Shown piece after piece: positions 1,109 through 4,105 of a stretch of 54,237 bases of DNA. The stretch is from the NCBI GenBank assembly GCA_036272035.1, contig DATAZN010000092.1, positions 1 to 54,237 on the forward strand, read 5' to 3'. The translations under genes and the position numbers were made by a program. How positions within the stretch are numbered: the stretch's first letter is position 1; every line of letters starts with the position of its first letter. The DNA is from Mycobacterium sp. (GTDB lineage Bacteria > Actinomycetota > Actinomycetes > Mycobacteriales > Mycobacteriaceae). The notes beneath the pieces are model-generated. The model was given only the letters and a program-made list of their open reading frames with translations. It was not told the origin of the DNA and ran no database searches.

Positions 1109-1420
1109 ATGGCCGAGCGAGGAGCGTTGCGGGTTCAACCCGAAGCGATGCACCGTGCGTCACAAGCACTCTCGGGTGCGGCGAAGGACCTGCACACAAA
1201 GCTCGTAGAACTCGACGTCCAGGTTCGCGAGCTGCTCGCCGGGTGGCATGGTGGATCTGGCGACGCGTACGGCCAGGCCTGGGATCTCTGGCATCGCGGC
1301 ACCGGAGAGATCCAGCTGGGGCTGTCGCTACTAGCGAAATCGGTCGGCGTCACCGGGGCCGATTTCGAGACCCAAGATTGCACCGCAGCCCAGACGGAGG
1401 ACGGTATCTACCGTGGCTGA
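1109..1420 (+). CDS. esxF: WXG100 protein, EsxF-like
   Basis: WHG motif and LRVQP...AWDLWHRGTGEIQLGLSLLA closely match Mtb EsxF. Start moved to ATG 1109 to fit the family length. Confidence 0.88.
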   Translation: MAERGALRVQPEAMHRASQALSGAAKDLHTKLVELDVQVRELLAGWHGGSGDAYGQAWDLWHRGTGEIQLGLSLLAKSVGVTGADFETQDCTAAQTEDGIYRG

Positions 1421-1703
1421 CGCTTTCAGTGTCGATCCGGAGGCGTTGGCCGATGCCATACAGCGCATGGGCGAATTCATGCGGCACACCGAGAGCGTCG
1501 TCGCTGAAATCGACTCGCTGGTAACGCATCTGCACCAGACCTGGTCGGGTGAGGCCGCGGCTGCGCATGCCGAGGCGCACCGTCACTGGTCGCAGGGTGA
1601 AGCGACCATGCGAGAAGCGTTAAAGGCGTTGAAGGCTGTCGGCAGCGCAGCGCACCACAACTACACGCACGCGATGGCGGCGAACGTGGCTATGTGGTCC
1701 TGA
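1413..1703 (+). CDS. esxE: WXG100 protein, EsxE-like
   Basis: WSG motif and DPEALADAIQRM...AEIDSLVTHLHQTWSGEAAAAHAEA...NVAMWS match Mtb EsxE. Overlaps the esxF end. Confidence 0.9.
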   Translation: MADAFSVDPEALADAIQRMGEFMRHTESVVAEIDSLVTHLHQTWSGEAAAAHAEAHRHWSQGEATMREALKALKAVGSAAHHNYTHAMAANVAMWS

Positions 1704-1707
1704 ACTA

Positions 1708-3876
1708 ATGGCACCGCTTGCGGTAGATCCAGAGGTCCTCGACGGAGCCGGCGCCGCCGTGATCTCGGCTGGCGAGGGGCTGGGATCGGTCATTACGACG
1801 TTGACCACGTCGCTGTCCGGATGCAACGGGATGGCCGGTGACGATCCGGCCGGTGCGGCATTCGGGCGCACCTACAACGCTTCAGCGTCCAAGCTGCTGG
1901 AGGCGATGGCTACTACCCGTAATGGGTTGTGCCGCTTGGGTGATGGAGTGCGGGTCTCTGCGCATAACTATTCGGCGGCCGAAGCACTCTCAAACGTATC
2001 GGGACACGGCCAGCCCCTGCCCACCCCGCGCCAGACCGGCTCTATTTCGGCTGGCTCAGCACCGTCGGCTGTCGGTGACGGCGTTGCCGCGCCGGCAGGC
2101 TGGGGCTGGGTGTCGAAATACATCGGGATGATCTGGCCGAATGGCGATTCGGCGAAATTGCGATCTGCCGCGGCCGCTTGGACCAGTGCCGGAACGAATT
2201 TCGAAGTCGGCGAGATACTTGGAGCCGCCGGGCCGATGGGCAGCATCGGCGCTCAGCAGATCCCCGAAGGCCCAGCGATCGCCGCGGCGTTCTCCGCCAC
2301 GAACCGTAACGCATCCGGAATTCTGCAGCAGTGCGCGATGATCGCGACGCAGCTCACGTCATTGGCCGGAAAGATCGACACGGTCCACGCCGCGATCCTG
2401 GATCTGTTGTCGCGCATTTGCAATCCGCTGACCGGGCTGAAAGAGGTCTGGGAGTTCCTGACCGATGACGACGAAGACGAAATCAGGAAAATCGCCAACG
2501 ACATTCGCATCATCGTCAACCAGTTCACGGCTGAAGTCGATGCGCTGTGTCAGGAGATCGCCAAGGCGCTTTCGGAAGCGGCCGTCATCATTTCCGCGAT
2601 GGCCCGCTACGCCGAGAAGGAGTGGGACGACTTCCTGCGCGACACCGATGTCGGCCGAGCCCTGGATCACGTCGGCCAGATGTGCAAGGGCGTGTTCACC
2701 GAAGCCGAGGGTTTCATCAAAAGCCTTTGGACCTTTAACCCGGCGCGAGCCGTCGTCGACCCGAAGGGCTTCTGGCACTCCGTCTCTGGCGCGGTCGACA
2801 AGCTGGAGTCGCTGACTGGATTGGAGGGCGAGCAGAGCCTCAAAGAGTCGTGGAAGGAGCTTGGCAAGGACACCGTCCATTGGGACGAATGGAGTACGAA
2901 GCCTTTCCAGGCGGCGGGCGAGACGCTGTTCGACGGGGCGACGATGCTTATTCCTGGTGGCGCTTTGGAGAAATTGCCCATGCTGGGCCGCGCCGCGGCG
3001 GAAGTTGCGGAGGCGCCCAAGGACCTTCACCTGCCCACCCCTAGTCGATTGCCTGATCCAGCACCTCACGACAATGCGCCACCGCGGAACGAACCGCCGA
3101 GAAGCGGACAGCCGCAGCCCGCGCCGCAGCCGGATCCCGCACCGAAGCCCAAAGGCGCGTTGCCGCCGTATGGGCTGACCGAGTCGAAAGCCCCGGCCGG
3201 GCAGAAGCCTCCAGTCGCGGCTCCCAAGTCAGCGGTCGAATCGGCAAATGCCGCCGTGCGCGCGGACCCATCTGCACCCAAGGTCGTGTCACACGAGCCA
3301 GCCAGCACACCACCGATGACCCTCCCCGGCGCGCAAGCGCACGGCGGCGCACTAAGCGCATACCAACCTCAGTCACTCGCACACGACCATCACGGACCGG
3401 TAGCCCACGACGCAGCGCCATTGACGACCGAGCATCTGTCGGCCGTGGCCGATTACACTGGTCCGGGACATGACGACCTGAACAGCGCGTTGAGGAACGG
3501 CACTATGGACGCATCTCAACAAGCTCGTGTTGAAGCACTAAATCAGGCACTAGAGAAAATGCCTCCACACCATGGCCCAGTTTTCCGCGGCACCCACTTG
3601 CCAGACGACGAGCTTGCGCGATATCAGCCGGGCGTCATCGTGACCGAGCGCGCATTCGTCAGCAGCTCTATGGATCCCGCAGTGGCCCGGTTCGCGGCAT
3701 TCGCGGGGAATGTTGAATTCAAGATCTTGTCCAGGACGGGACGAGATATCTCCTCGGTCTCGCTGTTCCCCAGCGAACGAGAAGTTTTGTTCCCAACCGG
3801 CGTGCAGTTTTACGTGCTTGATCGAAAATCTGATCCCGACACGGGCAGGACGATCATTGAAATGATCGAGCGATAG
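1708..3876 (+). CDS. cpnT: CpnT-family polymorphic toxin: CpnT N-terminal carrier, Pro-rich linker, C-terminal ADP-ribosyltransferase (R-S-E class) domain
   Basis: N-terminus MAPLAVDP...MAGDDPAG...HNYSAAE...WPNGDSAKLR...HWDEW matches CpnT. The C-terminus has YTG, LNSALR, VFRG, FVSSS and EREVLF ART motifs instead of TNT. Confidence 0.88.
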   Translation: MAPLAVDPEVLDGAGAAVISAGEGLGSVITTLTTSLSGCNGMAGDDPAGAAFGRTYNASASKLLEAMATTRNGLCRLGDGVRVSAHNYSAAEALSNVSGHGQPLPTPRQTGSISAGSAPSAVGDGVAAPAGWGWVSKYIGMIWPNGDSAKLRSAAAAWTSAGTNFEVGEILGAAGPMGSIGAQQIPEGPAIAAAFSATNRNASGILQQCAMIATQLTSLAGKIDTVHAAILDLLSRICNPLTGLKEVWEFLTDDDEDEIRKIANDIRIIVNQFTAEVDALCQEIAKALSEAAVIISAMARYAEKEWDDFLRDTDVGRALDHVGQMCKGVFTEAEGFIKSLWTFNPARAVVDPKGFWHSVSGAVDKLESLTGLEGEQSLKESWKELGKDTVHWDEWSTKPFQAAGETLFDGATMLIPGGALEKLPMLGRAAAEVAEAPKDLHLPTPSRLPDPAPHDNAPPRNEPPRSGQPQPAPQPDPAPKPKGALPPYGLTESKAPAGQKPPVAAPKSAVESANAAVRADPSAPKVVSHEPASTPPMTLPGAQAHGGALSAYQPQSLAHDHHGPVAHDAAPLTTEHLSAVADYTGPGHDDLNSALRNGTMDASQQARVEALNQALEKMPPHHGPVFRGTHLPDDELARYQPGVIVTERAFVSSSMDPAVARFAAFAGNVEFKILSRTGRDISSVSLFPSEREVLFPTGVQFYVLDRKSDPDTGRTIIEMIER

Positions 3877-3889
3877 AAGGAATCGAGCA

Positions 3890-4105
3890 ATGGCCGAAGA
3901 AATTGCCGGGAAAATATTCTCGACACCCGAGGAAGCCGGTGTCACCCGGCCGACCGACGCAGAGATAGCCCACGCACGCAAGCTATTCGACGAGTTTCAA
4001 GAGCAGATCGATCGCGTGCCTGAAGCAGATATTCCAACGGAAGTCTCATCGAAGTTTTTCGACGACGTCTCGGGTACCGAGTTCGAGGGGCGCCCAAGGA
4101 ACTAG
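3890..4105 (+). CDS. Small acidic protein, putative immunity protein for the ART toxin
   Basis: SD GAAGGA, 13 nt after the toxin stop. 71 aa, Asp/Glu-rich, in the position held by ift in the Mtb cpnT operon. Confidence 0.7.
   Translation: MAEEIAGKIFSTPEEAGVTRPTDAEIAHARKLFDEFQEQIDRVPEADIPTEVSSKFFDDVSGTEFEGRPRN

What the first reader, a model, noticed from the sequence alone, without database searches (positions are those of the whole stretch)
1109..4105. Complete type VII polymorphic toxin module: EsxF-EsxE-CpnT(ART)-small immunity gene
Seen: four tightly coupled genes (overlap, 4-nt gap, 13-nt gap). The large gene is CpnT-like for roughly 430 aa, then Pro-rich, then an ART domain. Known: Mtb esxF-esxE-cpnT-ift delivers the NAD+ glycohydrolase TNT, and EsxEF is needed for its export. 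CpnT homologs with swapped C-termini, including a predicted M. avium ART, have been noted, so the class is not wholly new. Inference: an EsxEF-dependent ADP-ribosylating toxin with an uncharacterised antitoxin, acting in interbacterial competition or against host cells. This is the best candidate for an undescribed system here.
Basis: partly seen in the sequence, partly recalled or inferred. Interest (0 to 1): 0.85.

Follow-up and report, generated by a model that had tools for sequence, protein, structure and literature searches.

The report
Overlooked antitoxin for mycobacterial Mav toxin
This four-gene cluster is a mycobacterial counterpart of the already described M. avium 'Mav' toxin operon, and its tiny last gene, which sits right behind this enzyme in many Mycobacterium and Nocardia genomes, likely encodes the toxin's overlooked antidote, which suggests the toxin is likely aimed at rival bacteria.

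Summary
In detail: esxF-esxE, a 722-aa CpnT-type carrier (56% to CpnT over residues 1-430) with an intact R-S-ExE ADP-ribosyltransferase (ART) tip, then a 71-aa ORF. The first three genes are known. They match M. avium MAV_4642-4644 (Mav toxin; ART 60% identical, all 13 predicted catalytic/NAD-binding positions kept or conservatively changed), a three-gene operon reported to lack an immunity factor.

The new part is gene four. It is under purifying selection and has no Pfam, NCBIfam or PDB match. It follows 32 of 32 intact ARTs of this clade, 0 of 8 distant ARTs, and 0 of 16 TNT- or Stv-tipped carriers. It co-diverges with the ART rather than the carrier (partial rho 0.57 vs -0.08). It also occurs as orphans, in tandem arrays and fused to Tsi6, and is present in 106 of 251 Nocardia-genus genomes. 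An M. avium copy has the accession directly after Mav's.

Best reading: an ESX-exported polymorphic toxin with a new small immunity family, probably antibacterial. Binding, toxicity, target and expression are untested. Against it: Mav's tip was purified from E. coli without any antitoxin.

The parts
1109..1420 (+). EsxF-like WXG100 protein, 103 aa (WHG at 46; F-x-x-x-D where the canonical signal is Y-x-x-x-D/E)
   Evidence: Pfam WXG100 E 4.5e-15; motifs
1413..1703 (+). EsxE-like WXG100 protein, 96 aa, GTG start, 8-nt overlap with esxF (WSG at 44; C-terminal AMWS rather than GxW)
   Evidence: Pfam WXG100 E 2.1e-12; motifs
1708..3876 (+). 722-aa Mav/CpnT-type polymorphic toxin
1708..2997 (+). 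CpnT-type N-terminal carrier region, residues 1-430, keeping the Y88 YxxxE export motif (YSAAE)
   Evidence: 56% to the CpnT cluster and 55% to Mav; motif
2998..3408 (+). Pro-rich linker, residues 431-567
   Evidence: 22.6% Pro
3421..3873 (+). R-S-E clade ART tip; R627, S652, E690 and E692 invariant in 30 of 30 aligned relatives
   Evidence: best PDB sequence match is 6DRE/6DRH (Tre1), E 1e-23 by profile
3875..3881 (+). Shine-Dalgarno-like AGAAGGA overlapping the toxin stop codon, 8 nt before the small gene
   Evidence: sequence
3890..4105 (+). 71-aa acidic protein (pI 4.4), predicted cognate immunity protein; family motifs G-K-x-F...E-E-x-G and F-x-D-D-x-x-G-T-E

Best explanation
The four genes are a Mav-type type VII toxin module in which EsxF-EsxE likely escort the CpnT-type carrier out through ESX-4, the intact ART tip likely uses NAD+ to ADP-ribosylate an arginine of an essential protein in a neighbouring bacterium, and the 71-aa protein likely binds the tip and blocks it in the producer. 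Shown here: the gene order, the orthology to Mav and CpnT, the intact catalytic motif, an ESX-4-type locus in the same genome, and the tight, tip-specific coupling of the 71-aa gene to this ART clade across three or more carrier types. Inferred from homologues: EsxEF/ESX-4-dependent export (M. tuberculosis CpnT) and arginine specificity (ExE motif). Inferred from genomic pattern only: neutralisation by the 71-aa protein (about 0.8 on its own) and a mainly antibacterial role (about 0.65). The 71-aa protein is too small for a hydrolase fold and has no such match, so stoichiometric active-site blocking is the likely mode. The target is unknown; FtsZ is only an analogy with other R-S-ExE antibacterial toxins.
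For: (1) Coupling. In 401 genomes of the genus, 32 of 32 intact ART matches (E<1e-60) have the small gene 16-51 nt downstream, against 5 of 7 broken or partial ones and 0 of 8 distant ARTs; a broader profile also found none near those 8. (2) Test with a query chosen independently of the small gene. Of the 30 best loci for full-length Mav, 10 of 10 ART-tipped carriers have it and 0 of 16 TNT-tipped (10) or Stv-tipped (6) carriers have it in the roughly 1 kb held past the stop; 4 loci were split or cut. (3) Co-divergence over 26 intact loci: partial Spearman rho is 0.57 for ART vs small gene given the carrier, and -0.08 for carrier vs small gene given the ART. L014 keeps a 92% identical carrier but only 68% ART and 66% small gene. 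The ART and small gene have GC 0.57 and 0.56, against 0.63 for the carrier and 0.65 for the genome. (4) Behaviour typical of immunity genes. 18 of 53 genomes with the small gene lack the clade ART. 20 of 54 loci hold two or more copies. Orphans sit behind other toxin/partner pairs such as TNT-Imm61 and Stv-SseB, and one homologue is fused to the immunity domain Tsi6. (5) Other lineage: 106 of 251 genomes of the genus of G817 (L054, titled Nocardia) carry it, and 24 of the 30 best loci have an ART directly upstream, on different carriers. (6) ESX-4-type locus eccB-mycP-eccD-eccC-Rv3446c-like in G000. (7) Precedent for inter-mycobacterial competition by such loci (PMC13444075) and for small occluding ART immunity proteins (PMC11606950).
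Against: The Mav C-terminal domain was expressed in E. coli BL21(DE3) and purified without any partner (PMC6560410), which argues against strong, broad antibacterial toxicity, at least in E. coli with that tagged construct. The only experimental phenotype for an orthologue is host-related (macrophage attenuation, cathepsin Z pull-down). CpnT/TNT has an immunity factor yet acts on host cells, so a downstream antidote does not by itself mean antibacterial. Related genomes are not independent, and alignment A2 was built from ARTs found beside the small gene. Some 'orphan' genomes are fragmented drafts. 6 of the 30 best Nocardia-genus loci and 2 of 9 metagenome loci have no ART upstream. EsxF has F rather than Y in its export motif, and EsxE lacks the exact GxW motif needed for pore formation in M. 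tuberculosis. No route for the tip into a target mycobacterial cytoplasm is known.
Confidence: 0.6

Rival explanations
1. The toxin is mainly aimed at eukaryotic cells (amoebae, macrophages), like CpnT/TNT and as proposed for Mav; the 71-aa protein only protects the producer before export.
For: The MAV_4644 transposon mutant is attenuated in macrophages and the tip pulls down cathepsin Z (PMC6560410). The carrier is the same type as CpnT. Host-directed ARTs (ExoT, ExoS, XopAI, Vis) are among the next-best PDB matches. The Mav tip was tolerated in E. coli.
Against: Self-protection alone does not explain orphans, tandem arrays, retention after toxin loss (L034, L052) or the Tsi6 fusion. The best PDB match is the antibacterial Tre1. 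No ART activity on cathepsin Z was shown in the sections read, and EsxE/EsxF orthologues pulled it down too.
Confidence: 0.22
2. The tip acts mainly as an NAD+ glycohydrolase (ART-fold NADase) that drains NAD+, and the 71-aa protein blocks it.
For: It alternates with the NADase TNT at the tip of the same carrier. A homologue of the small protein is fused to Tsi6, the immunity domain of an NADase (that role is recalled). Some Nocardia-genus tips lack the first Glu of ExE. ART-fold NADases exist (Tne5; search listing only).
Against: Both glutamates are invariant in 30 of 30 aligned tips, and the first Glu is described as needed for transfer (PMC11606950).
Confidence: 0.1
3. The 71-aa protein is not an inhibitor but a chaperone, activator or decoy substrate of the ART.
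For: Coupling and co-divergence fit any direct partner. In P0258 (Nocardia, 3076 aa) the domain is fused within the same chain about 60 residues after an ART. Direct binding is untested.
Against: A chaperone or activator has no reason to persist or multiply without the toxin, or to fuse to another immunity domain. Its position directly after the tip is the usual immunity slot.
Confidence: 0.08

Closest known systems
Mav toxin operon MAV_4642-MAV_4644 of M. avium subsp. hominissuis 104 (PMC3000352; PMC6560410)
   Same: Same esxF-esxE-carrier-ART order; carrier 55% and ART 60% identical; the listed NAD-binding and catalytic residues are kept, with Ser for Thr at one position; a HAD hydrolase gene lies next door here and was noted near Mav.
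   Different: The linker is about 100 aa shorter. The papers describe three genes and say the immunity factor is lacking. Here a fourth gene is present, and an M. avium copy (P0407, 39 of 71 identical) has accession GAB4660204.1, directly after Mav's GAB4660203.1.
M. tuberculosis esxF-esxE-cpnT-ift operon
   Same: EsxF/EsxE pair, 56% identical carrier, Y88 export motif, small downstream partner gene.
   Different: The tip is an R-S-ExE ART, not TNT; the partner is not IFT-like (no Pfam match); the locus lies beside a HAD hydrolase and a mycolic acid cyclopropane synthase gene.
Actinomycetota T7SS toxin loci (EatA-TapA1/2-EatI, PMC13444075) and prophage PEST3 cassettes (PMC10654092)
   Same: Two small helical partners, a helical-bundle carrier with a variable tip, and a downstream immunity gene that co-distributes with the tip.
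   Different: No ART tip or this immunity family is named in the parts read; this locus is chromosomal and was not found in the phage collection.
Tre1-Tri1 (Serratia) and TreX-TriX (Xenorhabdus) antibacterial ART pairs
   Same: R-S-ExE ART; Tre1 is the best PDB sequence match; immunity by active-site occlusion is the model used here.
   Different: Delivered by type VI secretion; Tri1 carries an ADP-ribosylhydrolase domain; the 71-aa protein has no detectable likeness to any PDB chain.

Membership tests
Mav toxin (MAV_4644) orthologue | CpnT-type N-terminus, Pro-rich linker and C-terminal VIP2/ART domain | tested here: met
Mav toxin (MAV_4644) orthologue | Upstream esxF-esxE pair and nearby HAD hydrolase gene | tested here: met
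   close Mav-like loci L057, L059, L060, L129, L140 and L146 show the HAD gene
R-S-E clade arginine ART | R ... S-T/S-S ... E-x-E motif intact | tested here: met
   R627, S652, E690 and E692, invariant in 30 of 30
R-S-E clade arginine ART | Transfers ADP-ribose from NAD+ to a protein arginine | not testable with these tools
   needs an enzyme assay
CpnT/TNT-IFT operon | C-terminal TNT NAD+ glycohydrolase domain (PF14021) | tested here: not met
   the tip is ART; no TNT hit
CpnT/TNT-IFT operon | Y88 YxxxE export motif and WXG motifs in both Esx proteins | tested here: met
   YSAAE at 88; WHG46 and WSG44
CpnT/TNT-IFT operon | EsxF YxxxD/E and EsxE C-terminal GxW motifs | tested here: inconclusive
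   FETQD in EsxF and AMWS in EsxE; relatives vary at both places
CpnT/TNT-IFT operon | EsxEF- and ESX-4-dependent export | not testable with these tools
   an ESX-4-type locus is present; dependence is inferred from PMC7810871 and PMC8593097
Polymorphic toxin system | Same carrier found with interchangeable tips | tested here: met
   ART (10), TNT (10) and Stv (6) tips among 30 loci
Polymorphic toxin system | Downstream gene tracks the tip, with orphans and arrays | tested here: met
Polymorphic toxin system | Downstream protein neutralises the tip | not testable with these tools
   needs co-expression or binding experiments
Tri1-type ADP-ribosylhydrolase immunity | ADP-ribosylhydrolase domain | tested here: not met
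   71 aa; no such Pfam, NCBIfam or PDB match for 30 family members
PEST (phage-encoded ESX-secreted toxin) | Encoded in a prophage or phage satellite | tested here: not met
   housekeeping genes downstream; no match of the small protein in 50,697 phage records; the upstream side is near the contig end

The most novel reading that the evidence does not exclude
The 71-aa protein founds a new family of miniature ART inhibitors, two short acidic motifs joined by a variable helix, that mycobacteria and nocardiae hoard as orphans and arrays for cross-protection. Mav-type toxins, including the one filed as an M. avium virulence factor without an antitoxin, would then be chiefly cytoplasm-acting weapons in actinobacterial competition, possibly with an actinobacteria-specific target.
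Probability: 0.35. Interest if true: 0.7.

Novelty: new member of a known kind. Interest (0 to 1): 0.45.

Why it matters
It would correct the published view that the Mav toxin operon has no immunity factor. It would also supply the missing reagent for producing and assaying this toxin class, whose enzyme activity and target were not shown in the papers read. Inter-mycobacterial competition was shown only recently, with a cell-wall-acting toxin; a cytoplasm-acting ART with a widespread orphan antidote would make the question of how type VII toxins enter another mycobacterium directly testable. The toxin operon itself is not new.

Tried and rejected
- No structural model of the ART with the small protein was obtained, so direct binding is untested.
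- Expression: no RNA holder was listed for window 1000-4200; this is no evidence either way.
- Naming the small protein: no Pfam or NCBIfam match for it, none credible for 30 family members, and none credible in PDB (the PARP1 and PPR hits are weak or compositional). The ESM Atlas gave only unnamed Actinomycetota clusters, one automatically named 'Antitoxin'. Two UniRef entries carry that name too. I take these as machine-made labels (my inference) and not as evidence.
- The carrier region has no PDB sequence match.
- Promoter and terminator scans were at chance level.
- Phages: no match. Plasmids: one orphan copy.
- Phylum-wide sample: only 3 of 401 genomes matched, all in the window's genus, so the family is not general in Actinomycetota.
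- No genome with near-identical Mav was among those searched (best 80%), so adjacency in M. avium rests on consecutive accession numbers, not on DNA read here.
- Rejected: the 71-aa ORF as a chance ORF; an IFT or Tri1 homologue; a prophage PEST; a degenerate ART.
- The scan's own notes returned nothing.
- Literature: searches found no description of this small gene. Supplementary Table 3 of PMC13444075 was not among the readable files and could list such pairs.
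Full report
Observation. Both upstream proteins are WXG100 and the large protein ends in an ART domain, residues 572-712. Its first 430 residues are 56% identical to proteins of the CpnT cluster, while the tip has no significant match to CpnT. R627, S652, E690 and E692 are invariant in 30 of 30 aligned tips, and the Y88 export motif shown to matter for CpnT (PMC8593097, section read) is kept. Homologue names place the window in Mycobacterium. 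The genome has four EccB loci, one with the ESX-4 layout eccB-mycP-eccD-eccC-Rv3446c-like.

The core is known. Fieldhouse et al. 2010 (PMC3000352, passages) predicted 'Mav toxin' in M. avium, reported cloning problems and noted a HAD hydrolase gene nearby. Lewis et al. 2019 (PMC6560410; opening part, passages and two whole sections) described MAV_4642-4644 as a three-gene esxF-esxE-ART operon, showed macrophage attenuation of a mutant, and stated that the immunity factor is lacking. The window's carrier is 55% and its ART 60% identical to Mav, and a HAD gene follows the module. The general layout of WXG100 partners, variable toxin and immunity gene is published for mycobacterial prophages (PMC10654092, passages) and for Actinomycetota chromosomes, with shown inter-mycobacterial competition (PMC13444075; opening part, one section, passages and 5 readable supplements). 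Its Supplementary Table 3 could not be read.

The fourth gene is real and unnamed. It has 236 homologues, a Shine-Dalgarno-like site, and dN/dS 0.04-0.18 in 8 of 9 comparisons. It has no credible Pfam, NCBIfam or PDB match. It is acidic (pI 4.4), with two conserved motifs, G-K-x-F...E-E-x-G and F-x-D-D-x-x-G-T-E, around a variable middle. Nine literature searches found no description of it. Some database entries carry the label 'Antitoxin', which I take to be automatic.

It tracks the ART tip. In a 401-genome sample of the genus, 53 of 400 scored genomes carry it. 32 of 32 intact ARTs of this clade have it 16-51 nt downstream, against 5 of 7 broken or partial copies and 0 of 8 distant ARTs. 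That ART profile was built from loci found through the small gene, so I repeated the test with full-length Mav as query. Of the 30 best loci, 10 of 10 ART-tipped carriers have it and 0 of 16 TNT- or Stv-tipped carriers do within about 1 kb of the stop; 1 locus was split and 3 were cut by contig ends. Over 26 intact loci (frameshifted, split and cut toxin genes left out) it co-diverges with the ART (partial rho 0.57) and not with the carrier (-0.08), across two carrier classes only about 30% alike. These loci are related, so the figures are descriptive. ART and small gene share a low GC content (0.57, 0.56, against 0.63 for the carrier and 0.65 for the genome). In the genus of G817 (L054, titled Nocardia) 106 of 251 genomes carry it, and 24 of the 30 best loci have an ART directly upstream, one of them only a stub; 6 do not.

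It behaves like an immunity gene. 18 of the 53 genomes lack the clade ART, some of them drafts. 20 of 54 loci hold two or more copies. Orphans lie behind TNT-Imm61 and Stv-SseB pairs (L021, L037) and survive loss of the toxin (L034, L052). One homologue is fused to the immunity domain Tsi6. In M. avium subsp. hominissuis a 71-aa member (P0407, 39 of 71 identical) bears accession GAB4660204.1 and Mav bears GAB4660203.1. I infer adjacency from these numbers; no M. avium DNA was read. All ten Mav-like ART-tipped loci among the 30 best, read directly, have the gene.

Mechanism. Most likely EsxF-EsxE escort the carrier out through ESX-4 (inferred from CpnT: PMC7810871 passages; PMC8593097 abstract). 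The tip then likely ADP-ribosylates an arginine of an essential protein in a neighbouring cell (inferred from the ExE motif and from the best PDB match, 6DRE/6DRH, named as Tre1-Tri1 in PMC11606950 passages). The small protein likely blocks the active site, as TriX does for TreX. That Tre1 modifies FtsZ is recalled, not read. I put the immunity role at about 0.8, the antibacterial role at about 0.65 and the whole account at 0.6.

Against this. The Mav tip was purified from E. coli without a partner. The only phenotype of an orthologue is in macrophages. CpnT has an immunity factor yet kills host cells. Two Esx motifs deviate from the M. tuberculosis pattern. No entry route into a target mycobacterium is known, and binding, activity, target and expression are all untested. 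PMC6398120 and PMC11217815 were read as passages and added nothing on this pair.

Verdict. This is a new member of a known kind: a Mav orthologue within the T7SS polymorphic toxins. The worthwhile addition is a candidate immunity family that the Mav papers missed and that is widespread in Mycobacterium and Nocardia. Interest 0.45.

Noticed in passing
L074-L081 (G348, G224, G105, G036, G322, G043, G333, G309): A second, distant clade of ART-tipped carriers is followed not by the 71-aa gene but by a weakly ART-like ORF of about 150-200 aa in all 8 loci, with a ~190-aa unknown gene in between in at least four (L075, L076, L078, L081); no Pfam match for those tested. Possibly a two-part immunity with an ART-fold mimic.
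   Followed up: partly
L062, L065, L037, L131, L136, L138, L142, L149: The Pfam 'putative adhesin Stv' domain occupies the toxin-tip position of CpnT-type carriers, followed in L065 and L037 by an SseB-N-like gene; Stv is likely a toxin domain.
   Followed up: partly
P0258 (Nocardia sp., 3076 aa), residues about 1008-1285: A giant WXG100_2 protein has an ART domain and a copy of the 71-aa domain fused in one chain about 60 residues apart.
   Followed up: partly
P0265 (162 aa): Fusion of the 71-aa domain to a Tsi6 immunity domain.
   Followed up: yes
L027, L032, L035, L038, L046: A ~90-aa unnamed family (motif YEEYYE...RRREHD) repeatedly lies directly before orphan 71-aa genes; probably another orphan immunity family; no Pfam match where tested.
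   Followed up: partly
L123, L124 and the second ART in L098: Nocardia-genus ART tips lacking the first Glu of ExE still carry the small gene downstream; possible NADase variants.
   Followed up: no
G000:C382:4250-6613 (L151): A second module in the same genome: two WXG100 genes, a 453-aa WXG100_2 carrier with no recognised tip, and a 129-aa unknown ORF.
   Followed up: partly
window 1-63 and 80-1006: The end of a gene whose counterparts in L001 and L014 carry DUF5632/DUF5631, then a 308-aa Ala/Gly/Pro-rich ORF with no Pfam match; this pair precedes esxF in the closest relatives.
   Followed up: partly
L055 (M. branderi plasmid record NZ_AP022607.1) 6695-7216: An orphan 71-aa gene behind an 87-aa hypothetical gene and a zinc metallopeptidase gene, with no ART.
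   Followed up: partly
L002, L003, L005, L015, L043, L049, L050, L051: Metagenome-assembled loci show frameshifts in the toxin and, in several of them, in housekeeping neighbours too, suggesting assembly errors rather than decay.
   Followed up: no
window 4157-6547: Downstream housekeeping block: HAD-IB hydrolase, FAS1-like dehydratase, mycolic acid cyclopropane synthase; the toxin module sits just upstream of this block in many relatives, with different tips.
   Followed up: yes
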